Part shown: piece by piece, positions 236 to 46,604 of the stretch
How the letters are laid out: every line of letters starts with the position of its first letter
Numbering within the stretch: position 1 is the first letter of the stretch
Sequence record: OQ243221
Origin: Escherichia phage vB_EcoS-UDF157lw
Strand: one strand, 5' to 3'
Length of the DNA: 46,604 bases
The notes under the pieces: model-generated
The model's database searches: none
The model's input: only the letters and a program-made list of their open reading frames with translations
What the model was told of the DNA's origin: nothing
Made by a program: the position numbers and the translations under genes

Positions 236-435
236 AAATTTCTATTTTTATTCCTACACTGTAGGAATTGTACTACCTTGTAGGAAAATATAAGGGGATA
301 TAGCTAGAACCCCCTCATCTATATGTAGACGCACGTAGACGCCTGTACACACCCAGCAACGATGCGGCATGCAGGGCAAAAAGCGTATCAATTTTAAAAT
401 AAACAAAAAAATACATTTATAGACACGTAAATCTT

Positions 436-493: not shown

Positions 494-1036
494 ATGAGCA
501 AAACGACCTTAGGTGAAGTAATTCGATTCATGGCTAAAAAGGCACTCCAGTCAGAAGATAAGGAGTTTAAGGTTCCAGTTCGAGATATTTACCGACAAAT
601 TAGAGGTCATGATTACCCGGAAATGGAGACTGATGATAAAACCGGGGATATTATCAACCTTGGAGAGCGGAAGTTGAGTGAGTTAAAGAACTCATACATT
701 CATAATACATTGTCACGAATGAGAGAGTTGCGTGAGGCTAAGTATATCGCCCGTTATCAATTCATCTGGATTGATGCGGATGGTGAAGATACCACGCCCC
801 GCCAGTATGATGGCGATGGTGCTGATAAATACCTGCTAATCCATCTCACCGAGGGGGTTAAGGAGCCAAAAGCAAAACAAAGAGAGAAAGAAGAAAAGGA
901 GCGGGCTGTTATTGAGAAGTTCAAATCTCGCTTGCTTAAGTTATCACCTAACGTACTGGATTTTGAAGGTGATGAGCTGACTGGCGCAGTTAAGGCTATC
1001 CGCATGTATCAAGAGATGATCAAGGAGTTTAACTAA
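494..1036 (+). CDS. Hypothetical early protein (180 aa), charged/Lys-Glu-rich C-terminal half
   Basis: ORF with GAGAGGA RBS 7 nt upstream; first gene after the AT-rich leader; no motif recognised. Confidence 0.6.
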   Translation: MSKTTLGEVIRFMAKKALQSEDKEFKVPVRDIYRQIRGHDYPEMETDDKTGDIINLGERKLSELKNSYIHNTLSRMRELREAKYIARYQFIWIDADGEDTTPRQYDGDGADKYLLIHLTEGVKEPKAKQREKEEKERAVIEKFKSRLLKLSPNVLDFEGDELTGAVKAIRMYQEMIKEFN

Positions 1037-1596
1037 TGTTTGATTTCGACGAAGATAAGTTAACTGATGACCAGGTGATGGAAGTCGCCAGGCAAGATAA
1101 CCTGCCGCCACTTCGTGTGGCAATCAATACTAATGGATACCGCCAATCATTCAATTTCTGGCCCAGCGCCGAAGAGATGCTGTGCGTCAAGTTGAGCTAC
1201 AAATACGGCGTCGTAGTGAGCATGATTAGACGCCAGGGCTGGAATGGAGTGGTTGGCATTCGATCTCTATACGAGGCAATCCGAAAGGTCCAGCCATTCG
1301 TCTGGCGCGAAGGGATTATGCATGACCTGACAAATAACATCATCCCAGAACTACAGGAGGCGGGAATTGTTTGCCTCATTGGCGATAAGATTTATGTTCA
1401 TCCGGCCCTGGTTGAGATGGATAAGGACGACGTGCAAAACTGGTGCAGTCAGTGCCGATCCGACGCGCCACGCTCAAACTACGTGCCACCGCAAACAACA
1501 ATCCATGGCTATGATGCCGATGAGGTGGAGAAGGCCATACAGTTCTACCGGAAAGCGAAAGCTCTCCTGAATGGTGAATATAGCACAAATTGCTAA
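1036..1596 (+). CDS. Truncated paralogue of the replication P-loop ATPase (N- and C-terminal domains only, 186 aa)
   Basis: Start overlaps previous stop (TAATG). N-terminus MFDFDEDKLTDDQVMEVARQDNLPPLRVAINTNGYRQS matches N-terminus of the 42577-44160 minus-strand protein; C-terminal GVVGIRSLYEAIRKVQPF...CLIGDKIYVHP matches its C-terminus; the ATPase core is absent. Confidence 0.7.
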   Translation: MFDFDEDKLTDDQVMEVARQDNLPPLRVAINTNGYRQSFNFWPSAEEMLCVKLSYKYGVVVSMIRRQGWNGVVGIRSLYEAIRKVQPFVWREGIMHDLTNNIIPELQEAGIVCLIGDKIYVHPALVEMDKDDVQNWCSQCRSDAPRSNYVPPQTTIHGYDADEVEKAIQFYRKAKALLNGEYSTNC

Positions 1597-3770: not shown

Positions 3771-3846
3771 GTTCTGCTGGCGTAACAGGATAACGCAGAG
3801 ACCTCCTAAGTCTCAGTTACTGGTTCGAGTCCAGTGCGGAACACCA
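3771..3846 (+). tRNA. tRNA-Arg (anticodon CCU, reads AGG)
   Basis: Hand-folded cloverleaf: acceptor GTTCTGC/GCGGAAC (one G-U), D-arm GCGT/ACGC with GG in loop, anticodon stem GAGAC/GTCTC with loop CTCCTAA (U33, CCT, A37), T-arm ACTGG-TTCGAGT-CCAGT, discriminator A, encoded CCA. Confidence 0.85.
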
Positions 3847-30359: not shown

Positions 30360-30782
30360 ATGCATACTTTAACAGGCGTAATTCGTAAGGCTCCTTTCAC
30401 TAAAGATGGTCAGAACGCCAAGGGTAACTGGAAGATGTACGCTATCGAAATGAGCGAATCTTATAAAACACGAGATGGAGAGCGTAAGTATAGTAATTAT
30501 CGAGCTACCTTCTTTGCTAGCGAGGCGCAAATTAGCTGGTATGACGAAGCATTTCAGGAAGGAAAAGTTATCTCTGTGAGCGGCGATTCATTAGCGGTTA
30601 ATGAGCGCGAACATAATGGCAAGACATATATTACGCTTGAGTTGCAGAATCCTCGATTGATGTTTAGTCAGCGAGGAGGTGAATCAGAACAGCAGCAGCA
30701 GCGACAACAAGCTCAACAGCAACAGAGACAGCAGCCGCAGCAACAAAGCCGATTTAGTGATGAAGATGATATTCCGTTTTAA
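30360..30782 (+). CDS. ssb: Single-stranded DNA-binding protein (140 aa)
   Basis: OB-fold-like N-terminal region, Gln-rich linker, acidic tail ending DEDDIPF. Confidence 0.85.
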   Translation: MHTLTGVIRKAPFTKDGQNAKGNWKMYAIEMSESYKTRDGERKYSNYRATFFASEAQISWYDEAFQEGKVISVSGDSLAVNEREHNGKTYITLELQNPRLMFSQRGGESEQQQQRQQAQQQQRQQPQQQSRFSDEDDIPF

Positions 30783-33608: not shown

Positions 33609-34532
33609 CTATGAATGCTTATCTATCAGATCTTGCGGGTTATATAACCTTCTTTCAAGCCCCATCTTGAAATTGCCACCTTTAGGTATTACGACTTTTA
33701 GACCTCTATCATCAGCAACATAAAGCGACTCCTTTTCATCAGCTAAGCAAGCTATCCTGCACTCTTTATTCCTGAGTTCATAAGCAACCATTTCTAAGTT
33801 GTGGTGAGTTAGGCAGTCGTAAGTTGTCCTTTTTGTGCATGCCGATACATGTAGTGCGTTAATCCAGCCAACAGTGAGGTAGATAGCGCCATCACTACAT
33901 TTACTTACCGGAACAACCGAGCCGCGAGTGTAGTCTTTTGCGAGATATGACTCATTACCCTCTTCATCTATAAACTTTACGTTACAAGGCTCATCTGATA
34001 AACCATCCTCGTAAACCATAAAGCATTGCTCGGCTATAATTTCTTCTCCAGACCCCTTTATTCCTATTTTGTATTCCCGTTCAGTAATAATTGCTTCAAA
34101 TCTCGTAAGCTGTGTCATTTCTACAGACTTGGTGCGAGATATTACCTTCTCGATTGATTCAATGGATGCCTGAGCGCCAAAGTTATATCTCTGAACTCGG
34201 CTCGCTGCTTTGTTTGCCTTCACTATGATTTCGACGGGAGTCAAATTAAGCCAGTCGCCAAGTAAATTTATAGCTTCCGCAAATCTAAGGCCGGAACATT
34301 TCATAACCCATCCTATTCCTGAGTCACTGCCGCACTTAGAGCAAACTGCGGCCCCATTACCTTTTTCGCTTCCTATTTCGTCTGTAAACCTGAATCTGTC
34401 AGTACCAAAGCAATAAGGGCACGGCCCGTGCTTCTTGCTAAGGTGTCTATCATTCCAACCAAGCTCCTTTGCATAAAATGATTTCCACAATCCAGCCATT
34501 TTAGGTATTACTTCATTCTTGTCGTAATTCAT
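33609..34532 (-). CDS. Putative DNA primase (zinc-ribbon type, 307 aa)
   Basis: CPYCFG...CSKCG zinc-binding motif near the N-terminus; acidic motif YVADDRG; located in the replication module. Confidence 0.5.
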   Translation of the reverse strand: MNYDKNEVIPKMAGLWKSFYAKELGWNDRHLSKKHGPCPYCFGTDRFRFTDEIGSEKGNGAAVCSKCGSDSGIGWVMKCSGLRFAEAINLLGDWLNLTPVEIIVKANKAASRVQRYNFGAQASIESIEKVISRTKSVEMTQLTRFEAIITEREYKIGIKGSGEEIIAEQCFMVYEDGLSDEPCNVKFIDEEGNESYLAKDYTRGSVVPVSKCSDGAIYLTVGWINALHVSACTKRTTYDCLTHHNLEMVAYELRNKECRIACLADEKESLYVADDRGLKVVIPKGGNFKMGLERRLYNPQDLIDKHS

Positions 34533-34584: not shown

Positions 34585-35058
34585 TTACTCTTTAGCTTTT
34601 CGTGCTTCTTCTCTTTCTTTCTTAACCTTTCGCCATGATTTACGCTGCGGCTTGGTTGCTAACTCAGCTTCTGTAACAACTCGAAGCATCTGACGCTTCT
34701 TGCATCGCAGTGTTAGAGGCTTGCCGTTACCGTCGAACTGTAAATCAGGTCGGCAGAATGTAGCCCTGAACCCCTCTCCAGTTCGCTTATATCGATTATG
34801 CGCAAGCTGTGCGCCGCGAGCTGAAATCATTCCCCGCTTACACCATTCTTCTACAGCCTGGCGCGTAACCTTTAGCTGCTTAGCTAGATTGGCCTTGCTG
34901 CCGTAGAAGTCCAATACAATCTCAAGGCGCGCCCTTAATCCCGCTCTCACTTCATCCTTTAGTACATAGTAACCTGATGGACGCTTACGCGGCTTCTTGT
35001 CTTCTGTGCGAATTGTTCCGTTGTTACCATTAAGAGTACGCTTGTCAATTGAATCCAT
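34585..35058 (-). CDS. Helix-turn-helix DNA-binding protein (Cro/YdaS-like, 157 aa)
   Basis: Motif GSKANLAKQLKVTRQAVEEWCKRGMIS; basic Lys/Arg-rich C-terminus; divergent from the helicase operon. Confidence 0.55.
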   Translation of the reverse strand: MDSIDKRTLNGNNGTIRTEDKKPRKRPSGYYVLKDEVRAGLRARLEIVLDFYGSKANLAKQLKVTRQAVEEWCKRGMISARGAQLAHNRYKRTGEGFRATFCRPDLQFDGNGKPLTLRCKKRQMLRVVTEAELATKPQRKSWRKVKKEREEARKAKE

Positions 35059-35072
35059 TTTCTCACCTCAAT

Positions 35073-35113
35073 AGCACTTTTTGTTAAACATTGGTTTAGA
35101 TGGATGTTATTAT
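35073..35113 (+). promoter_or_regulatory. Composite promoter-like element: TAGCACtttttGTTAAA, 21 nt, TATTAT
   Basis: Lies in the divergent intergenic region; the -10 sits inside the track ORF start, which argues for the downstream ATG 35151. Confidence 0.45.
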
Positions 35114-35150
35114 ATCGCCAATCGAACGAACATTAAAGGCATTTGATATT

Positions 35151-37094
35151 ATGGAAAACCGATTGAAAACAATACAAAAACAGATTGAAGAATTGGGCGA
35201 AGATAAGATTAAAGAGATTCAAACTAAATTCACCTCTTCTAACGGTATGGTTCCGTATAGCTATCAGTGTGTTATGTACAATGAGATTGCAAAGCGCATT
35301 AGTCGCTATGAGCATCCATTTATCGCAATGGCTTCAGTTTCTGCTGGTAAGACTCTGGTTTTTGGTATGGTTGCTAAGCGTTGCTCTGAGCTTGGCTTGC
35401 CTATGCTTGTTCTTGCTCGTCAGGCAGAGCTGGTTAGCCAGAATGCTTCTGAGATTTCTGATTACGGGGTTCCTAACTCCATTTATTGCTCTGGGCTTGG
35501 AATAAAATCATCTTATTTCCCTGTGGTGGTTGGCTCTGAGGGCACAGTAGTTGGCGGGCTTAAGAAGTCACTTGGCGATTTCTGTCCTGCGGTAGTTGCT
35601 ATTGATGAGTGTCACCATATTGATGACCAGGACATAGCGGAGGCAATTGATAACAATGAGACTGCGCAACAGGCATTAGATAAGGGGCGTAGCCAGTATA
35701 CGGTCATCATCCTGACTTTAATGGAGCGCTGCCGTGCTAAGTATGGCAAGAATCTCCGTATCTTTGGACTGACTGGTTCTCCTTTCCGTGGAACTACGCC
35801 AATAGTTGTTGAAAACAAAAAGGAGTTGGGATTTTGGCGTGAGACGGTCACAAATATCGATACAAACTACCTGGTCGAGTTCGGTTCCGTGGTTCCGACA
35901 AACTTTGGTGCTACTGATGGCGTTGGTTACGACCTGTCAGAGTTTGATGCATCATCTGAAGATGGTGTTCAGGATTACACTAAAGCCCAGCTTGAAGCCA
36001 TGGATAAAAAGATTCAGGCATCTGGAACAATGACAGCGGAGATAATGAAGAAAGTATGGCTTGCCGCGAAAAACAGGAATGGAGTTCTGGTAACATGCGC
36101 AGGTGAGCGCCATTGCCACGAAGCCGCAAGTTACCTTCCTGAAGGTGAAAAGTTCTGCATTATAACTGGAAAGACTGGCGAGAAGCAGCGCAAGGAGTTG
36201 CTTGATAAGTGCTTTAGCGGGGAGATTAAATATTGCTTTCAGGTTCAGGCGCTAACCACTGGCGTAAATGTGCCTACATGGGATACAAGCGTTATTCTGC
36301 GTAAGATTGGTAGCCTTACACTCCTGGTTCAGCTACTTGGTCGAGGAATGCGTAAGCTTAAGAAGCTCCATGAAGATAAAGGAATGGTCAAGAATGACCA
36401 TTTGGTACTGGACTTCGCAGGAACGATGGACTCTATGGCATCATTGTACTTCAATCCAATTCTTGAGCAGGCTCAATATCAGCTACGAAAGAGTAATGGC
36501 AAGGAGACTAAGCAGTGTCCAGTATGCGGAACAGAGAACAGCTTCTTTGCTCGACGTTGCATGCATATTGATGAGAATAATAATCGCTGCGAATATTTCT
36601 GGGTTAGTCGCACATGTGAAGACCAGAAAGACCCACGAACCGGAAAGGTTATCGTTAAAGGCTGCGGAGTTCAGAATGACGTTGCAGCTAAGATTTGTAG
36701 GGGTTGCGATTGCACTTTGCTTGATCCAAATCTCAACTTAAGCGGCAAACATTACCGCAAGAACGACTGGTTTGATGTTGTTGACTTTAAGGTTGGGCTA
36801 ACAAAGAACCAATCAGGAATCATCTACAACTACATCCTTGATGATGGCATGGGTGGGACATTCAAAGCTCATGAGGTTTTCTTTGTAGAGTCTGACCATC
36901 GAGTATGTAAAACGCTCTGGTTGAACAATGGAATTAAAGGTCACGTAGTCGACATGAACGCTAAGCGATATATGGCTGCATATCGCAATGCTCGCAAGAT
37001 TATGGAGTATGCGCAGTACATCCATGCCCCTAAGAGGGTAACTCACCGCAAGACCGCTAAAGGTGGCGATAATATTGCTAATAAGGAGTTCTAA
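35151..37094 (+). CDS. SF2 DEAH-type DNA helicase with C-terminal Cys-rich zinc-ribbon region (647 aa)
   Basis: Walker A SAGKT, motif II DECHH, further helicase motifs; C-terminal CPVCG...CRGCDC cluster. Confidence 0.85.
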   Translation: MENRLKTIQKQIEELGEDKIKEIQTKFTSSNGMVPYSYQCVMYNEIAKRISRYEHPFIAMASVSAGKTLVFGMVAKRCSELGLPMLVLARQAELVSQNASEISDYGVPNSIYCSGLGIKSSYFPVVVGSEGTVVGGLKKSLGDFCPAVVAIDECHHIDDQDIAEAIDNNETAQQALDKGRSQYTVIILTLMERCRAKYGKNLRIFGLTGSPFRGTTPIVVENKKELGFWRETVTNIDTNYLVEFGSVVPTNFGATDGVGYDLSEFDASSEDGVQDYTKAQLEAMDKKIQASGTMTAEIMKKVWLAAKNRNGVLVTCAGERHCHEAASYLPEGEKFCIITGKTGEKQRKELLDKCFSGEIKYCFQVQALTTGVNVPTWDTSVILRKIGSLTLLVQLLGRGMRKLKKLHEDKGMVKNDHLVLDFAGTMDSMASLYFNPILEQAQYQLRKSNGKETKQCPVCGTENSFFARRCMHIDENNNRCEYFWVSRTCEDQKDPRTGKVIVKGCGVQNDVAAKICRGCDCTLLDPNLNLSGKHYRKNDWFDVVDFKVGLTKNQSGIIYNYILDDGMGGTFKAHEVFFVESDHRVCKTLWLNNGIKGHVVDMNAKRYMAAYRNARKIMEYAQYIHAPKRVTHRKTAKGGDNIANKEF

Positions 37095-41837: not shown

Positions 41838-42223
41838 TTCTGGCAATTATCTTGCTGACAGGGTGCTCTGCTATGTCAGCCATTTCTGATTTCTTACCAG
41901 TAAAGGATGGCGTAGAGGCAACCGCGCAGGTTGGTGAGTCCAACCAGAAAACAGGAGTTGGATTGTCAAATCAAACAGACAAATCTAGCTCAACAGAAAG
42001 CGACATGCGCAACTCAACTAACAGAGACGTAGATTCATCAAGCCAGAAAAAGACAGCCGCTACAGGACTATCAGCCAACACAATAACAGCTGAAAAGATT
42101 GAAATTCATAGCACTGAAAATTCTGGCTTTGACTCTTTAGTCTGGGGTATTCTGGCTGGATTAGTTTCAGGTTTGCTAACTTACTTCGCTTTAAGATTCG
42201 CAGGAAACAAAAAAGGAGCCTAA
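41819..42223 (+). CDS. Unimolecular spanin (u-spanin, T1 gp11-like, 134 aa)
   Basis: N-terminal lipoprotein signal with lipobox LTGC and C-terminal TMD LVWGILAGLVSGLLTYFAL, the defining u-spanin topology. Confidence 0.75.
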   Translation: MRFGVVVLAIILLTGCSAMSAISDFLPVKDGVEATAQVGESNQKTGVGLSNQTDKSSSTESDMRNSTNRDVDSSSQKKTAATGLSANTITAEKIEIHSTENSGFDSLVWGILAGLVSGLLTYFALRFAGNKKGA

Positions 42224-42238
42224 TGGCTCCTTTATTTT
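42208..42238. terminator. Bidirectional terminator between convergent rightward and leftward operons
   Basis: GGAGCC-taat-GGCTCC flanked by AAAAAA upstream and TTTATTTT downstream. Confidence 0.65.
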
Positions 42239-42572
42239 ACGCGAACAGTTGGTCGTCTGTCATTTCTTTTATGGTCATCATCTCATTGGTGTACTTATCA
42301 CTCTCACCTCCGAGGCACCTAAAGCTAAAACCGAATGGTCGCTTCGTGCTTCCTTTGCTCCAGTAACTGCCATTAACTCCATCGATGTAACCTTCAGTCA
42401 TGCATCTTGCCAGAAACTCCTTTGACGCAGATGATGCAAAGTAACGCGCATTAACTCCAGCTGCCTTAGCCATTCTTTCACATTCTTTGTGGCGGTAAAT
42501 GAATACCGCCAGGTGCTGCCTGTTAAACTTTTCGTAGCTCTCGCAGAACTTGAACACATCAAGGATGAACAT
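42237..42572 (-). CDS. Hypothetical protein (111 aa)
   Basis: ORF in track, last gene of the leftward operon. Confidence 0.5.
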   Translation of the reverse strand: MFILDVFKFCESYEKFNRQHLAVFIYRHKECERMAKAAGVNARYFASSASKEFLARCMTEGYIDGVNGSYWSKGSTKRPFGFSFRCLGGESDKYTNEMMTIKEMTDDQLFA

Positions 42573-42576
42573 TTAA

Positions 42577-44160
42577 TTACCCCAGCAGCCGTGGATTGAT
42601 ATATACCTTGTCACCAATCAGGCAGGTATAGTTTTTATCATCAAGCATCGGGAGTAAGTGGTCTTTAATTTTAGCCATAACACCAGCCTGTGACTCGAAA
42701 GGTCGAACCTTACGCGCAGCTTCATAAAGTGAACGCAAACCCACAACTCCTTTACTGTTCTTGCCTTGCTTGATAAGGATATCAATTAACTTGTTCATCT
42801 CAGCGTTATCGCCAGCATGACCAGCTGCGTTAGCAGAAGATAAGTAAGTCTTGCTAAGTTCTTCAAACATCAATAAAGCCTCCTGCATCGTTTCCAGTCC
42901 AATCTCCCTGGACTTCTGCGGACTACCGCCATTTGGATTAAACCAGTTACGTATGGTGTGAAGAACGGCAGCAAGGCGAATAACCTGTTTATCCATTTTA
43001 CCTAGTGCGCCACGGAGCATTGTGTGTGAATACTTGCCGCCATCCGCAAGGTGTGGCTCCATTTCCTGTCGAGCACGGTTAAGGTGCTTCATTGCTGAGT
43101 TACTAATAGTCAACTTCACATCTTGCTCACTCATAATTTCATGAACAAGACGGAAGTAATCAGCCTTCAACGCTCCGTCAATCGGCTCATATGTTGACTC
43201 GCCATTATCATCGACGAAAACACGCTCACCAAGGAATGACTTTTCACGCACAAGCAAGAAACGTTCGGATACACCAATACCGCGAGCACCAGCATTCATG
43301 ATTGCGACTATTGTTTCATCCTGCGCAATTACAGAAATACACCCCATAGCAATAAAGCTCATGTTGTTCTCTGCGTTCGCACGCGCGATAGATACGTTAC
43401 CAGCATCCCAGGCCTTAAGTACCAGTTCGCTGTTTGTTTTCTTTGTTCCATCACCATAGGTCATGCCCAGCAGTGAGTTGACGCTCGTCGCCTCATCCGA
43501 GATGACAGCGAAGCTACCCTGACGATGGTTAATGCGTGCCAGACCTTCAGGAGTAGTATCAGATACAGGGAATACGATGTCGCAAAGTTTCTCGAGCTTA
43601 TCTTCCAGCTCCTCCTTCTCCTCAAACAAACCAGCCATCTCAGAAGGCGACTTCTCCTGCTTCATTTCTTTAGCCAGAGCCGACAGCTTGGCCATAATCT
43701 TTTTACGGTCACGCTTACGCAGATCGTTTAGTCGCTCAGTCTCTGCAATCATTGGAGCAAGAGACAGCGAGTTAATGGCAGATTTACCAGTTGATGGAGG
43801 CTGGCTGGTCACTACATACAGTGATGTTGGTTGTTGAGTTCCGTGATACTCAACCGTAAAGCGACCTAACATAGCTGCCGAGATGCAACCAAGGAAGTGC
43901 ATATAAGCAGATGATTCAGGAAACTGAACAGAACGAGCAATGTTGCTTGATAGTTTGCCAACTACATCATAGTCGTTACCAAGCGAGATAACAGGATACT
44001 TGTCGCCAGTAGAATCAATCTCAACCGGAGCTTTCCAGAATGATGCGCTCTGGCGATAACCGTTCGCATTAATAGCAACACGTAAAGGAGGTAATCCATC
44101 CTGAGCGGCAACAGCCATTACTTGTTCAACAGTCAATTTGTCATCATTAAAATCAAACAT
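42577..44160 (-). CDS. Putative replication-associated P-loop NTPase (helicase/primase-associated, 527 aa)
   Basis: Deviant Walker A PPSTGKS and Walker B-like FAVISDEATS; RBS GAGAGAG before ATG 44160; N- and C-termini are paralogous to the 1036-1596 protein. Confidence 0.6.
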   Translation of the reverse strand: MFDFNDDKLTVEQVMAVAAQDGLPPLRVAINANGYRQSASFWKAPVEIDSTGDKYPVISLGNDYDVVGKLSSNIARSVQFPESSAYMHFLGCISAAMLGRFTVEYHGTQQPTSLYVVTSQPPSTGKSAINSLSLAPMIAETERLNDLRKRDRKKIMAKLSALAKEMKQEKSPSEMAGLFEEKEELEDKLEKLCDIVFPVSDTTPEGLARINHRQGSFAVISDEATSVNSLLGMTYGDGTKKTNSELVLKAWDAGNVSIARANAENNMSFIAMGCISVIAQDETIVAIMNAGARGIGVSERFLLVREKSFLGERVFVDDNGESTYEPIDGALKADYFRLVHEIMSEQDVKLTISNSAMKHLNRARQEMEPHLADGGKYSHTMLRGALGKMDKQVIRLAAVLHTIRNWFNPNGGSPQKSREIGLETMQEALLMFEELSKTYLSSANAAGHAGDNAEMNKLIDILIKQGKNSKGVVGLRSLYEAARKVRPFESQAGVMAKIKDHLLPMLDDKNYTCLIGDKVYINPRLLG

Positions 44161-44203
44161 TATTATCATCTCTCTCTAAATGCCCCCGAAGGGGCTTGAC
44201 TAT

Positions 44204-44383
44204 TTACTTGATACGAACTTCAATCATCTGGCCTTTATGAGGAAGATACAGCTTTGCGCGACCTCTAATCATTACGGTGATGATATTCTCCTTAAGGTCA
44301 ACGTGAAGTACTTTGCGGAACAGTGGCCCCATTTTTACCATCATGCCAGGTTTGATGTTTTCGATAGTAGTCATGATATCCAT
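44204..44383 (-). CDS. Hypothetical protein (59 aa)
   Basis: Hand-translated MDIMTTIENIKPGMMVKMGPLFRKVLHVDLKENIITVMIRGRAKLYLPHKGQMIEVRIK; preceded by promoter element and CATCGAAACGA leader. Confidence 0.4.
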   Translation of the reverse strand: MDIMTTIENIKPGMMVKMGPLFRKVLHVDLKENIITVMIRGRAKLYLPHKGQMIEVRIK

Positions 44384-44421
44384 TTTTTAGCCCTTTTAAT
44401 GTATTTCGTTTCGATGAAGAG

Positions 44422-44465
44422 AATATATCAATTTTTGTTGTTAAGTCCTTTAGCAAAAAGTGCTA
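44422..44465 (-). promoter_or_regulatory. Composite promoter-like element (minus): TAGCACtttttGCTAAA, 23 nt, TGaTATATT, leader CATCGAAACGA
   Basis: Reverse complement read directly. Confidence 0.5.
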
Positions 44466-44582
44466 TTAAAGACCAACCAGACATTTGCCAACTACAACAG
44501 CGATTGCGCCCATGAAGCCAAAGAAACCAAACTTAATTACTTGTTCCATTACCGCATCAACTGCTTTAGAGATGTTTTTCAT
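44466..44582 (-). CDS. Small hydrophobic protein (38 aa, MKNISKAVDAVMEQVIKFGFFGFMGAIAVVVGKCLVGL)
   Basis: Strong RBS AAGGTGA; C-terminal TM-like segment; the track N-terminal extension translates through a terminator hairpin and is rejected. Confidence 0.35.
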   Translation of the reverse strand: MKNISKAVDAVMEQVIKFGFFGFMGAIAVVVGKCLVGL

Positions 44583-44612
44583 TTTGTTCACCTTAGTTTT
44601 TGTCTTCTTGAT

Positions 44613-44663
44613 GGAAACAAATATACCCGCCGAAGCGGGTACTGTCATTAGCAAAAAGTGCTA
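44613..44663 (-). promoter_or_regulatory. Overlapping terminator and promoter-like element (minus): TAGCACtttttGCTAA, hairpin ACCCGC-ttcg-GCGGGT, TATATT
   Basis: The hairpin and U-rich tract sit inside the spacer between the palindrome and the -10-like hexamer. Confidence 0.45.
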
Positions 44664-44870
44664 TTTTTTTAAGTGCCCTGGCGCATAGCATTTTCCATCC
44701 TTCTTATGCAAAACCCACCCAGCATATTTAAGTTGCCTTGCACAATCAGAAAAGTTCTCGCCCGCAGCGTCCGTATAGTGTGGCATAAAATAAGAACCAT
44801 CATCATTTGACTCAGTTGAGCACTTCTTACAGTCGCAATAAACAGCGATGGAATAACCTGAAACAATCAT
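44661..44870 (-). CDS. Hypothetical Cys-rich small protein (69 aa)
   Basis: CDCKKC ... C ... C pattern suggests a zinc-binding protein. Confidence 0.45.
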   Translation of the reverse strand: MIVSGYSIAVYCDCKKCSTESNDDGSYFMPHYTDAAGENFSDCARQLKYAGWVLHKKDGKCYAPGHLKK

Positions 44871-45220
44871 TTGTAAGCCGCCTCAAACTTATACATCCCA
44901 TAACCCACATCAAAGCCAACTTCTTCATCACGCGTCAACTGCCAGCCCTCGCCGTCTTCATCATAAATATACCCAGCGTTACGACCAAGTGATGCAGTCA
45001 TTGATACCTGGTAACGCTTACCCTTACTGAAACTCTTCTTGAGTGGTGACTTGTGGTTCACGAAAGTGCAAAGCAAAGTCTTGGTCTTGACGTAACGACC
45101 CCGGCCAGTGAGATTTTGCCATTTACCATGAATCTTGATTTGCTCAATACCATCTTTAACGCGAGCTTTAAACAGATTGTTATCTGAGCTGATCCAGTTT
45201 TTAGTGATAGTGGTAGCCAT
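44867..45220 (-). CDS. Hypothetical protein (117 aa)
   Basis: ORF in track; overlapping stop/start with the downstream gene. Confidence 0.5.
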   Translation of the reverse strand: MATTITKNWISSDNNLFKARVKDGIEQIKIHGKWQNLTGRGRYVKTKTLLCTFVNHKSPLKKSFSKGKRYQVSMTASLGRNAGYIYDEDGEGWQLTRDEEVGFDVGYGMYKFEAAYK

Positions 45221-45245
45221 TACTATTTTCCTTTTTGGTTTGTTA

Positions 45246-45548
45246 TTAGTTAGCGTTATGACGTTCGATATAGTCGCGGATTGTTTCGCCTACGCTTTTA
45301 GCGGCACCAAAAGTGCCCTTTGCGTGGCGTGAATCGCGGTACGTCTGGAAGAATTTACGAGCGATGTTTGCGAACATTGAACCAGTCACGCGAGCATCAC
45401 CGAAATTTGTTTCGATAGCGTTGCTAATGCCATCCTTGAACTCATTTTCAGTCATGAACATCTCTGCCATGCCAGCAGTCTCGAAAAGGTTAGCTAATTC
45501 ATTCATGTTGTTATGGTCTTCGGCTGTAAACAGGTTCATGTTAATCAT
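45246..45548 (-). CDS. Hypothetical acidic protein (100 aa)
   Basis: ORF in track; preceded on the minus strand by promoter element and CATCGAAACGAAAC leader. Confidence 0.5.
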   Translation of the reverse strand: MINMNLFTAEDHNNMNELANLFETAGMAEMFMTENEFKDGISNAIETNFGDARVTGSMFANIARKFFQTYRDSRHAKGTFGAAKSVGETIRDYIERHNAN

Positions 45549-45581
45549 CTTCGTGATTCCTTAGTTTCGTTTCGATGAGAT

Positions 45582-45625
45582 GAATATACAATAAAAGCCC
45601 CGAAGGGCTTTAGCAATTCGTGCTA
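45582..45625 (-). promoter_or_regulatory. Composite promoter-like element (minus): TAGCACgaaTTGCTAAA, hairpin AGCCC-ttc-GGGGCT, TGTATATT
   Basis: Reverse complement read directly; the TAG of the motif is the stop codon of the upstream 50-aa ORF. Confidence 0.5.
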
Positions 45626-45775
45626 TTTCTTTGCTGCTTTTGCAATTGCCTTCTGGACGATGTTGAAGCTCTCAATCAAATCTTCTTTGAAGTAGTCACC
45701 AACAGGCCAACCCTTACCGCTGTACTTTGCTATAGTTTCTAGATCGTAATAGTTCAAATCAGATGGTTTAAGCAT
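45623..45775 (-). CDS. Small hypothetical protein (50 aa)
   Basis: Hand-translated MLKPSDLNYYDLETIAKYSGKGWPVGDYFKEDLIESFNIVQKAIAKAAKK; start abuts the upstream stop (TAAATG). Confidence 0.35.
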   Translation of the reverse strand: MLKPSDLNYYDLETIAKYSGKGWPVGDYFKEDLIESFNIVQKAIAKAAKK

Positions 45776-46015
45776 TTACCTCACCTCATCAAAAGTTGCG
45801 ACACCAGGGATAAACATTCCGACCTTCCAACCTGCGATAGCAATCCATCCAGAATCGTGCTTGTGCGGTCGCTCGGCGCCATTAATCACCCACTCGTTCG
45901 GGATTGTCTTGCCGTTAATGATTAGCAGCTCAGCTTCGTATACAGAGCCTTTTACAAATGGCGTCAAAACCTTTTTGTCTGTACTGTTAATAACGTTTGT
46001 GCAGCGAATTTTCAT
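45776..46015 (-). CDS. Hypothetical protein (79 aa)
   Basis: ORF in track. Confidence 0.5.
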   Translation of the reverse strand: MKIRCTNVINSTDKKVLTPFVKGSVYEAELLIINGKTIPNEWVINGAERPHKHDSGWIAIAGWKVGMFIPGVATFDEVR

Positions 46016-46025
46016 ATCTCAATCC

Positions 46026-46205
46026 TCAAATAAATGGTAAACATTCGACGCAGCCAAGTCCATCGCAGCACAGAAATTCATCTTCTGACTGGAATTGCTT
46101 AGCCAAATCAATGTCCAGCTTTCCGCGCAGCACAAGGTTGGTGTAAACTTCGTTAAGTCCAATCAGTGCGCATTCGTGGCGCAAATCGTCTTTATCAATC
46201 TTCAT
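46026..46205 (-). CDS. Small Cys-rich hypothetical protein (59 aa)
   Basis: Hand-translated; C-terminal CCDGLGCVEC; start overlaps the upstream stop. Confidence 0.4.
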   Translation of the reverse strand: MKIDKDDLRHECALIGLNEVYTNLVLRGKLDIDLAKQFQSEDEFLCCDGLGCVECLPFI

Positions 46206-46389
46206 ACCGCTCTACCTCGAAGTTGTATACCATTACGTTTCTATCATGCTTGTTCTTTATCACCATTGACTCAAGCTCTTCGTATACAGCCACTACATTG
46301 TAAACACCACCAGGCTCAAGGCCGTAGAATTCGTATTCTTCATCGTCAAAACCATCCGTTTTACTTAGTGCTGTTATTTTTACCTTCAT
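46195..46389 (-). CDS. Hypothetical acidic protein (64 aa), first gene of the leftward operon
   Basis: RBS GAGGAG; promoter element immediately upstream. Confidence 0.5.
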   Translation of the reverse strand: MKVKITALSKTDGFDDEEYEFYGLEPGGVYNVVAVYEELESMVIKNKHDRNVMVYNFEVERYED

Positions 46390-46417
46390 ATCTATCTCCT
46401 CGTTGTTGATGAGTTTA

Positions 46418-46460
46418 CTATAGCCTTGCCATCCCCATTTTTCTTTAGCAAAAAGTGCTA
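46418..46460 (-). promoter_or_regulatory. Composite promoter-like element (minus): TAGCACtttttGCTAAA, 21 nt, TATAGT, leader CATCAACAACGAGGAG
   Basis: Reverse complement read directly; drives the leftward small-gene operon. Confidence 0.5.
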
Positions 46461-46604
46461 TTCGTCAGATTTATGGATTGTTGCAGGCATTGCGATGATT
46501 AGCATGACTATTACACATAAAGCAATATTTCATCGAGTGCAACAGGTTTATTGATTGTTGCCAGTTTGGCAATGATGGATGGATGGATTGAATGAAAGGA
46601 GGTT

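What the first reader, a model, noticed from the sequence alone, without database searches (positions are those of the whole stretch)
42577..44160. Replication-module P-loop protein with deviant Walker A and its own paralogous terminal domains
The protein has a non-canonical Walker A (SQPPSTGKS, first Gly replaced) and an hhhhDE Walker B, and lies in the leftward early operon. Its exact family (SF3 helicase, primase-associated NTPase or other) cannot be fixed from sequence alone, and the shared terminal domains with 1036-1596 suggest modular domain exchange.
Basis: partly seen in the sequence, partly recalled or inferred. Interest (0 to 1): 0.45.

Follow-up and report, generated by a model that had tools for sequence, protein, structure and literature searches.

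The report
T1-like phage MCM-like helicase, headless paralog
The gene is the ordinary core DNA helicase of T1-like phages, from a family (DUF3987) already known to resemble the MCM helicase, and its odd ATP-binding motif is a family trademark; the one less ordinary point is a small, dispensable second gene that keeps only the helicase's two end domains.

Summary
ORF 42577-44160 (-) encodes 527 aa with SQPPSTGKS and FAVISDEA, and both of its ends recur in ORF 1036-1596 (+).

The claim that the family cannot be fixed does not hold:
- The window is a complete Rogunavirus (Drexlerviridae, T1-like) genome.
- The protein matches Pfam DUF3987 (E 2.5e-42) and phrog_2373 "DNA helicase" (E 3e-255). It is 100% identical to the phiJLA23 protein.
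- RefSeq calls its orthologues "DNA helicase", and 897 phage records carry it.
- DUF3987 was assigned to the MCM-like superfamily 6 in 2016, and one member was shown to be a 5'-3' helicase in 2025.

The "deviant" Walker A is a family signature: Q-P precedes xxxGK[ST] in about 140 of 149 distant relatives. The lysine, the catalytic glutamate and the likely arginine finger are near-invariant.

The 186-aa paralog is the helicase's N-terminal three-helix domain plus its winged helix, without the ATPase. The duplication is old, since synonymous sites are saturated. The gene is under purifying selection but its amino-acid sequence changes 5-27 times faster than the helicase's. Only 102 records carry it, and Rogue1 has deleted it. 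Its function is unknown; it may bind the same partners as the helicase.

The parts
42577..44160 (-). CDS of the DUF3987-family, MCM-like AAA+ helicase (527 aa plus stop)
44026..44160 (-). N-terminal three-helix mini-domain (residues 1-45), shared with the small paralog
   Evidence: Helices 11-21, 25-33 and 36-41 in the model; 69% identical to residues 1-48 of ORF 1036-1596; not covered by the Pfam model, which starts at residue 84
43780..43806 (-). Walker A / P-loop, SQPPSTGKS (residues 119-127)
   Evidence: Translation. Q120, P121, P122, S123, G125 and K126 are invariant in 38 homologues down to 36% identity. In 149 distant representatives Q120 occurs 140 times, P121 139 times and K126 144 times
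43588..43791 (-). Long helical hairpin directly after the P-loop (helices 124-166 and 172-191)
   Evidence: Secondary structure of the model, block pLDDT about 88-96; present in all aligned homologues; lies inside the contiguous Pfam DUF3987 match
43489..43512 (-). Walker B, FAVISDEA (residues 217-224)
   Evidence: Translation. E223 occurs in 147 of 149 representatives. D222 occurs in only 57 of 149, replaced by A in 50 and S in 33
43243..43344 (-). Sensor-1 strand (GCISVIAQDE, Q280) followed by the GVSERFLLVRE motif (R300, likely arginine finger, resembling the MCM 'SRF' motif)
   Evidence: Q280 144/149, G296 144/149, R300 144/149, E306 143/149; strands 273-279 and 301-305 in the model. The motif roles are assigned by analogy to MCM and are an inference
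42973..43026 (-). Lid-domain motif HTMLRGALGKMDKQVIRL (R383 and K388, candidate sensor 2)
   Evidence: K388 144/149, G384 135/149, R383 101/149; helices 380-387 and 389-405. The role is an inference
42580..42813 (-). C-terminal winged-helix domain (residues about 450-527), shared with the small paralog
1036..1596 (+). CDS of the 186-aa 'headless' paralog (phrog_7327; JK_46 / AHP42 gp64). It has the N-terminal three-helix domain (1036-1170), a winged helix (1198-1416) and a paralog-specific tail with a conserved helix (1417-1593)
494..1036 (+). DUF7174 gene immediately upstream of the small paralog. Its stop overlaps the paralog's start (TAATG), and the synteny is conserved
   Evidence: Pfam PF23796 E 2.4e-44; junction sequence; same gene pair in L002, L029 and L031
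42237..42572 (-). 111-aa gene 4 nt downstream of the helicase (phrog_2794, 'YdbL'-like, function unknown), the last gene of the unit
   Evidence: It is not conserved at this position in L029 or L031
42212..42233 (-). Intrinsic terminator ending the leftward unit, placed back to back with the lysis cassette
   Evidence: 9-bp stem, 5 GC pairs, T-run; annotated as a terminator in Rogue1 and AHP42
33609..34532 (-). Phage primase with a T7-type zinc ribbon, the likely working partner of the helicase, encoded 8 kb away
   Evidence: Pfam Zn_Ribbon_Prim E 3.2e-10; annotated 'DNA primase' in Rogue1

Best explanation
ORF 42577-44160 (-) encodes the core helicase of T1-like phages (Drexlerviridae). It belongs to the DUF3987 family, whose ATPase domain is an MCM-like AAA+ module (helicase superfamily 6).

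The protein most likely forms a ring. ATP would be bound between the P-loop (K126, S127), the Walker B glutamate (E223) and sensor-1 Q280 of one subunit, and the arginine finger (R300 in the ERF motif) and lid residues (R383, K388) of the next subunit. The ring would unwind phage DNA at the fork, working with the separately encoded zinc-ribbon primase and the host polymerase.

The unusual Walker A (Q-P in place of the first glycine) is the normal, conserved form in this subfamily. It is not decay.

A three-helix N-terminal domain and a C-terminal winged helix flank the ATPase. They probably dock partners or DNA.

ORF 1036-1596 is an old duplicate that kept only these two flanking domains and gained a short tail of its own. 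It is a real but accessory, fast-evolving gene. It most likely binds whatever the helicase ends bind, and so modulates or competes with helicase loading or partner binding.

Shown here: family, fold, motif conservation, domain sharing, gene distribution and selection. Inferred: ring assembly, polarity, the replicative role, and every function proposed for the paralog.
For: Family:
- Pfam DUF3987, 145.8 bits against a cut-off of 27.
- phrog_2373 'DNA helicase', E 3e-255.
- Orthologues are annotated 'DNA helicase' in RefSeq.
- 897 phage records hold a full-length copy.

Fold:
- AF2 model pLDDT 89.3, pTM 0.87.
- Next come RavA, BchI, Cch, ComM and the SaPI5 primase-helicase.

Literature:
- DUF3987 was linked to MCM/SF6, has a C-terminal winged helix, and was predicted to be a replicative phage helicase (PMC4889955).
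- A PriCT-DUF3987 protein is an oligomeric ATP-dependent 5'-3' helicase that Walker A and Walker B mutations abolish (PMC11724360).

Motifs in 149 distant representatives:
- Q120 140, P121 139, K126 144, E223 147.
- Q280 144, R300 144, E306 143, K388 144.

Genome context:
- A primase, an SF2 helicase, VRR-NUC, ERF, an exonuclease and a gene annotated as SSB in Rogue1 are present.
- No DNA polymerase is annotated.

Paralog:
- BLASTP E 4e-20 and 4e-19 to the helicase ends.
- Paralogous segments have saturated synonymous sites: pN 0.23 and 0.36, pS about 1.0 and 0.77.
- Orthologue dN/dS is 0.15-0.48 against 0.02-0.05 for the helicase.
- A full copy occurs in only 102 phage records.
- Every genome checked that carries it has a helicase at least 87% identical to this one.
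- Rogue1 keeps only a 28-aa in-frame remnant.
Against: - No biochemical or genetic data exist for this protein or any Drexlerviridae orthologue in the papers I could search.
- The gene is not next to the primase, unlike many DUF3987 genes.
- The genome also encodes an SF2 helicase that could do part of the unwinding.
- The Walker B aspartate is not conserved in the family, so the catalytic geometry may differ from textbook AAA+.
- The only tested DUF3987 helicase runs 5'-3', opposite to MCM. MCM is therefore a guide to fold, not to mechanism.
- Neither sequence nor profile searches find any solved structure. The MCM link here rests on a predicted model.
- For the paralog, nothing shows that it contacts the helicase, the primase or DNA.
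Confidence: 0.8

Rival explanations
1. The protein is an SF3 (P4 alpha / D5 / E1-type) helicase or a generic primase-associated NTPase. These were the alternatives the first reader left open.
For: It is a P-loop protein with a C-terminal winged helix, as in P4 alpha. DUF3987 domains can take the place of D5-type helicases in primase fusions.
Confidence: 0.03
2. It is an MCM-like AAA+ motor but not the fork helicase. It could be an origin-melting initiator, a recombination or restart translocase, or an anti-defence factor, with host DnaB or the phage SF2 helicase doing the fork unwinding.
For: The gene lies apart from the primase and recombination genes, at the end of a cluster of small accessory-type genes. 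A second helicase (SF2, next to VRR-NUC) is present. AAA+ relatives such as ComM and RavA are not replicative helicases.
Against: It is a core gene, held by 897 Drexlerviridae-type records, under very strong purifying selection (dN/dS 0.02-0.05). The family is repeatedly fused or linked to primases, and a member unwinds forked DNA. There are no PADLOC hits.
Confidence: 0.12
3. The deviant Walker A marks a degenerate, catalytically dead ATPase that serves only as a scaffold.
For: The first glycine of GxxxxGK[ST] is replaced by Q. The Walker B aspartate varies within the family.
Against: The Q-P substitution is itself conserved in about 94% of distant relatives. K126, S/T127, E223, Q280 and R300 are near-invariant. 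A DUF3987 helicase described as having a Walker A 'with some variation' is active and depends on these motifs.
Confidence: 0.03
4. The shared ends reflect recent modular exchange or gene conversion between the two genes, or the small ORF is a decaying pseudogene of a second helicase copy.
For: Small-paralog N-domains are closest to Rogunavirus-type helicases (about 0.7 identity against a helicase-wide mean of 0.41). In phiEB49 and Sf12 the paralog's winged helix is 61-73% identical to the helicase over 70-91 aa, against 45% here. This hints at conversion or repeated origin. Rogue1 shows that in-frame deletions do occur at this locus.
Against: In this window the shared DNA differs at most third codon positions and synonymous sites are saturated. 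The small ORF stays intact at 174-191 aa in most of the 120 homologue clusters listed, of 288 found, with dN/dS below 0.5 and a conserved tail of its own.
Confidence: 0.1

Closest known systems
DUF3987 (PF13148) helicases, e.g. AgaPH of Seonamhaeicola sp. S2-3 and the phage DUF3987 proteins classed as SF6 by Kazlauskas et al. 2016
   Same: Strong Pfam match, conserved Walker A lysine and Walker B glutamate, a C-terminal winged helix, carriage by a mobile element or phage, and presence alongside a primase.
   Different: There is no PriCT or primase domain at the N-terminus; a 45-residue three-helix domain sits there instead. The primase is encoded 8 kb away, not adjacent or fused. Activity and polarity are untested here.
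MCM helicases (archaeal MCM, eukaryotic MCM2-7, MCM8/9)
   Different: Only 11-17% identity, and no Pfam MCM hit. No MCM-type N-terminal OB-fold or zinc domain appears in the model; the N-terminus is helical. There is a long helical hairpin after the P-loop. The one assayed DUF3987 member translocates 5'-3', whereas MCM runs 3'-5' (my own knowledge).
MCM-like self-loading helicases of staphylococcal elements (SCCmec Cch, SaPI5 primase-helicase)
   Different: They belong to a different family (DUF927) and are much weaker structural matches than MCM itself.
Phage P4 alpha protein and its copy-number regulator Cnr
   Same: P4 alpha binds the origin through a C-terminal winged helix. The structural paper on that domain is titled as showing regulation by homo- and heterodimerisation of winged-helix proteins (reference listed). 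cnr controls P4 copy number. This is the nearest precedent for a small protein acting on a replication helicase's winged helix. That Cnr acts by binding alpha is from my own recollection and was not checked here.
   Different: P4 alpha is an SF3 primase-helicase. The paralog here also carries the helicase's N-terminal domain and a tail of its own. No interaction, DNA binding or regulatory effect has been shown, and no iterons were found in the divergent intergenic region.

Membership tests
DUF3987 (PF13148) | Match to the family HMM above the curated gathering score | tested here: met
   145.8 bits against a cut-off of 27, E 2.5e-42, covering residues 84-436 and profile positions 3-352 of 364
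DUF3987 (PF13148) | Conserved Walker A lysine and Walker B glutamate | tested here: met
   K126 in 144 of 149 and E223 in 147 of 149 distant representatives; both invariant in 38 closer homologues
DUF3987 (PF13148) | C-terminal winged-helix domain | tested here: met
DUF3987 (PF13148) | Fusion to a primase, or a primase gene immediately upstream (frequent in the family, not universal) | tested here: not met
   The primase lies at 33609-34532, 8 kb away in another transcription unit. The immediate upstream gene encodes a 59-aa protein of unknown function
DUF3987 (PF13148) | ATP-dependent DNA unwinding | not testable with these tools
   Shown only for AgaPH
MCM / helicase superfamily 6 (AAA+) | An AAA+ ATPase fold most similar to MCM | tested here: met
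MCM / helicase superfamily 6 (AAA+) | A trans-acting arginine finger after the sensor-1 strand, and a beta-hairpin before sensor 1 | tested here: inconclusive
   R300 in GVSERF is present in 144 of 149 representatives. A strand pair at 255-258 and 267-270 precedes strand 273-279. Roles were assigned by analogy; no residue-level superposition was available
MCM family proper (PF00493 with the MCM N-terminal domain) | Pfam MCM match and an N-terminal OB-fold / zinc domain | tested here: not met
   No MCM hit at E up to 1. Residues 1-97 of the model are helical, with no OB-type strands. The protein is MCM-like but not an MCM
SF3 helicases (P4 alpha, D5, E1, LTag) | Sequence or fold match to the SF3 AAA+ core | tested here: not met
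DnaB-type (SF4, RecA-fold) helicases | RecA-fold core matching DnaB or T7 gp4 | tested here: not met
Cnr-like small regulators of a replication helicase (for ORF 1036-1596) | A small protein that binds the helicase or its origin complex and changes replication | not testable with these tools
   Only the shared winged helix and N-terminal domain are shown. No interaction data exist

The most novel reading that the evidence does not exclude
The 186-aa protein (1036-1596) is a 'headless helicase'. It is an early-expressed, fast-evolving mimic of the helicase's two docking domains. It would compete for the helicase's partner (primase, SSB, a host factor, or neighbouring helicase subunits) or its DNA site. 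Its effect could be to time or limit helicase loading, to poison the replication of co-infecting relatives, or to act as a decoy for a host defence that senses the helicase. This would be a separate-gene, domain-deleted regulator of an MCM-like helicase, restricted to one lineage of T1-like phages and dispensable in the laboratory.
Probability: 0.35. Interest if true: 0.5.

Novelty: already known. Interest (0 to 1): 0.27.

Why it matters
For the helicase, little changes. It confirms with independent structural evidence that the RefSeq label "DNA helicase" on this Drexlerviridae core gene is sound. It shows that the gene belongs to the MCM-like DUF3987 family, and that the Q-P Walker A is a usable family signature rather than a defect.

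This is a reminder that T1-like phages, which lack their own polymerase, bring an archaeal/eukaryotic-type helicase motor to a bacterial replisome.

The ATPase-less paralog is the only lead with some discovery value. If it interacts with the helicase or its partners, it would be a compact natural tool for mapping what the terminal domains of DUF3987 helicases bind. It would also be an example of a phage regulating or sabotaging an MCM-like helicase with a domain mimic.

Tried and rejected
- NCBIfam gave no hit for the helicase, the paralog or their neighbours.
- PADLOC gave no hit, so there is no support for a defence-system role.
- Sequence and profile searches of the PDB gave only chance-level hits. 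The MCM link could not be shown at sequence level with the tools at hand.
- I considered a DnaB-type P-loop because of the P-S-x-G-K-S resemblance. The fold search rejected it.
- I looked for iterons or an origin in the roughly 700-bp divergent intergenic region, using the contiguous AHP42 locus. Only short AT-rich repeats and one palindrome turned up, nothing iteron-like. Promoter-like sites were no more frequent than in shuffled sequence.
- I tested whether the paralog's N-terminal domain co-varies with its own genome's helicase. It does not. L029 and L031 have a divergent paralog N-domain but a standard helicase N-domain.
- The hairpin just upstream of the helicase start is not significantly stable (z -1.6).
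- A Foldseek search of viral models with the paralog found only T1-like orthologues and helicase fragments, none with a known function.
- Literature searches for Drexlerviridae helicase escape mutants, T1 host replication requirements and early-gene transcriptomes gave nothing relevant.
I could not check whether the N-terminal domain and the winged helix touch each other.

Full report
**What the window is.** The right end (42000-46604) is 99.3% identical to phage vB_EcoS_Rogue1. The left end is 97-98% identical to AHP42, JK06 and BECP10. These are Rogunavirus phages (Drexlerviridae, T1-like) with circularly permuted genomes of about 46 kb. The window is therefore a whole phage genome. Its two ends join across a divergent intergenic region of about 700 bp.

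**The observation.**
- ORF 42577-44169 (-) is real.
- The likely start is the ATG at 44160. It has a GAGAGAG ribosome-binding site 9 nt upstream, and all homologues begin MF(D). The product is 527 aa.
- SQPPSTGKS occupies residues 119-127 and FAVISDEA occupies residues 217-224.
- ORF 1036-1596 (+), 186 aa, shares residues 1-48 (69% identity, E 4e-20). Its residues 60-126 match helicase residues 458-526 (45% identity, E 4e-19).

**Family.**
- Pfam assigns residues 84-436 to DUF3987 (E 2.5e-42, 145.8 bits against a cut-off of 27).
- PHROGs assigns the whole protein to phrog_2373 "DNA helicase" (E 3e-255).
- NCBIfam and PADLOC give nothing.
- The protein is 100% identical to that of phiJLA23. RefSeq annotates the orthologues as "DNA helicase".
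- A full-length copy is present in 897 phage records, mostly Klebsiella, Escherichia, Salmonella and Shigella siphophages. It is a core gene of the family.
- A profile search of 1.84 billion representative proteins finds 5520 relatives, 346 of them at E up to 1e-30. Many are about 520 aa. Others are 780-970 aa and match the helicase profile only in their C-terminal part. DUF3987 fusions to primase domains are described in the literature.

**Fold.**
- An AlphaFold2 model built on 38 homologues is confident (pLDDT 89.3, pTM 0.87).
- They are followed by RavA, BchI, SCCmec Cch, ComM and the SaPI5 primase-helicase.
- No SF3 or DnaB-type helicase appears in the list.
- Sequence and profile searches of the PDB find nothing, so the link is visible only at fold level.
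- This agrees with Kazlauskas et al. 2016. They linked DUF3987 to MCM by profile comparison, noted its C-terminal winged helix and primase association, and predicted a replicative role.
- It also agrees with a 2025 study showing that a PriCT-DUF3987 protein is an oligomeric, ATP-dependent 5'-3' helicase that needs its Walker A and B motifs.

**The "deviant" Walker A.** Q120, P121, P122, S123, G125 and K126 are invariant in 38 homologues down to 36% identity. Counts in 149 distant representatives are:

| Residue | Count of 149 | Likely role |
|---|---|---|
| Q120 | 140 | Walker A, replaces the first glycine |
| P121 | 139 | Walker A |
| K126 | 144 | Walker A lysine |
| position 127 | S 127, T 17 | Walker A Ser/Thr |
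| E223 | 147 | Walker B catalytic glutamate |
| D222 | 57 (A 50, S 33) | Walker B aspartate, not conserved |
| Q280 | 144 | end of the sensor-1 strand |
| R300 | 144 | arginine finger in G-x-S-E-R-F |
| E306 | 143 | same motif |
| K388 | 144 | lid domain, candidate sensor 2 |
| T203 | 145 | unassigned |
| E205 | 145 | unassigned |

- QPxxxGK[ST] is therefore a subfamily signature on an ATPase that otherwise looks fully competent.
- The motif roles are my assignment by analogy to MCM and are inferred.
- A long helical hairpin (residues 124-191) follows the P-loop. It is part of the family.

**Context.**
- The gene is the last but one of the leftward gene cluster. The cluster starts at the divergent intergenic region and ends at a strong terminator (42212-42233), back to back with the lysis cassette.
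- Internal terminator-like sites at 44623-44642 and 45594-45611 divide the cluster.
- The other replication and recombination genes lie 5.5-15 kb away. They are:
  - the zinc-ribbon primase (33609-34532);
  - the SF2 helicase (35100-37094);
  - VRR-NUC, ERF and the PDDEXK exonuclease;
  - an ORF at 30360-30782, with no Pfam hit, that corresponds to the gene annotated as SSB in Rogue1.
- No DNA polymerase is annotated in Rogue1.
- "Replication module" is thus true in function but not in position. "Early" is inferred.

**The small paralog.**
- Its model (pLDDT 83.5) has the same three N-terminal helices (11-21, 25-33, 36-41) as the helicase. It also has the same winged-helix order, followed by a tail with one conserved helix at 161-178.
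- It belongs to phrog_7327 (function unknown) and has 288 homologue clusters. Most of the 120 listed are 174-191 aa.
- It always follows a DUF7174 gene, with overlapping stop and start (TAATG), at the head of the rightward cluster.
- A full copy occurs in only 102 phage records. All 14 paired genomes I examined have a helicase at least 90% identical to this one, and a further locus whose small ORF is truncated has one at 87%.
- In Rogue1 an in-frame deletion of about 460 bp leaves a 28-aa remnant. The gene is therefore dispensable for a viable lytic phage.

**Evolution of the paralog.**
- Between the paralogous segments, most DNA differences are at third codon positions and synonymous sites are saturated. 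The duplication is old. The similarity is kept by selection on the protein, not by recent exchange.
- Among orthologues the paralog has dN/dS 0.15-0.48 and dN 0.16-0.60. The helicase in the same genomes has dN/dS 0.02-0.05 and dN 0.02-0.06.
- The paralog's N-terminal domain does not track its own helicase.
- In phiEB49 and Sf12 the paralog's winged helix is much closer to the helicase (61-73% identity). Occasional conversion or repeated origin cannot be excluded.

**Mechanism.** For the helicase I commit to an MCM-like ring motor that unwinds phage DNA together with the phage primase and host polymerase. The two small terminal domains would serve as docking modules. For the paralog the most economical reading is that it binds the same partners or DNA as the helicase ends. 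It would thereby tune, compete with or mimic the helicase. The nearest precedent is phage P4, where the winged-helix origin-binding domain of the alpha primase-helicase is regulated through winged-helix dimerisation and cnr controls copy number. This remains untested.

**Verdict.** The main subject is an already known, correctly annotated helicase of a known family. Its odd Walker A is ordinary for that family. The headless paralog is a modest, apparently undescribed side observation that merits a simple interaction test.

Noticed in passing
window 250-268 and 273-286: A perfect 19-bp palindrome, ATTCCTACACTGTAGGAAT, with a partial second copy (CTACCTTGTAGGAA) 5 bp downstream. Both lie in the AT-rich divergent intergenic region of about 700 bp between the leftward and rightward gene clusters. 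It could be an operator for the Cro-like regulator (34585-35058) or part of an origin.
   Followed up: partly
L003 (Rogue1) 1103-1189, compared with window 1036-1596: Rogue1 gp04 (28 aa) is an in-frame deletion remnant of the small paralog. It keeps the first roughly 12 residues (MFDFSEDKLTDE) joined to the last roughly 15, with about 460 bp lost. The paralog is therefore dispensable.
   Followed up: yes
window 494-1036: The DUF7174 gene overlaps the small paralog's start (TAATG). It is its constant upstream neighbour in every genome examined, which suggests translational coupling and possibly a joint function.
   Followed up: partly
L016 (phiEB49) 533-1075; L015 (Sf12) 1043-1588: In these phages the small paralog's winged helix is 61-73% identical to the helicase over 70-91 residues, against 45% in this window. 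This hints at gene conversion or an independent origin of some small paralogs.
   Followed up: partly
L005 10001-10573 and L008 30-473 (both from phiKP26): phiKP26 shows a full small-paralog gene near the end of the record and a second copy of residues 52-186 at the start of the record. This could be terminal redundancy in the assembly or a real duplication.
   Followed up: no
window 43489-43512 (Walker B), family-wide: The Walker B aspartate (D222) is not conserved in the DUF3987 subfamily (D 57, A 50, S 33 of 149), while the following glutamate is nearly invariant. This is unusual for an AAA+ ATPase.
   Followed up: partly
window 43588-43791: A helical hairpin of about 65 residues is predicted directly after the P-loop helix (residues 124-191). 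It is conserved in all homologues and has no counterpart, to my knowledge, in MCM.
   Followed up: partly
window 44623-44642 and 45594-45611 (minus strand): Two terminator-like hairpins lie inside the leftward cluster. The first overlaps a promoter-like site (44648-44620). The helicase may therefore be transcribed from its own unit starting near 44620 rather than from the far divergent promoter.
   Followed up: no
window 3771-3846: tRNA-Arg (anticodon CCU), as also annotated in Rogue1 and AHP42.
   Followed up: no
JK06 record (hits H19/H20; BFVD entry JK_55P): In phage JK06 the helicase is annotated as several short ORFs (JK_52 to JK_55, 'DNA helicase' twice). This is probably a frameshift or sequencing error in that old record.
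   Followed up: no
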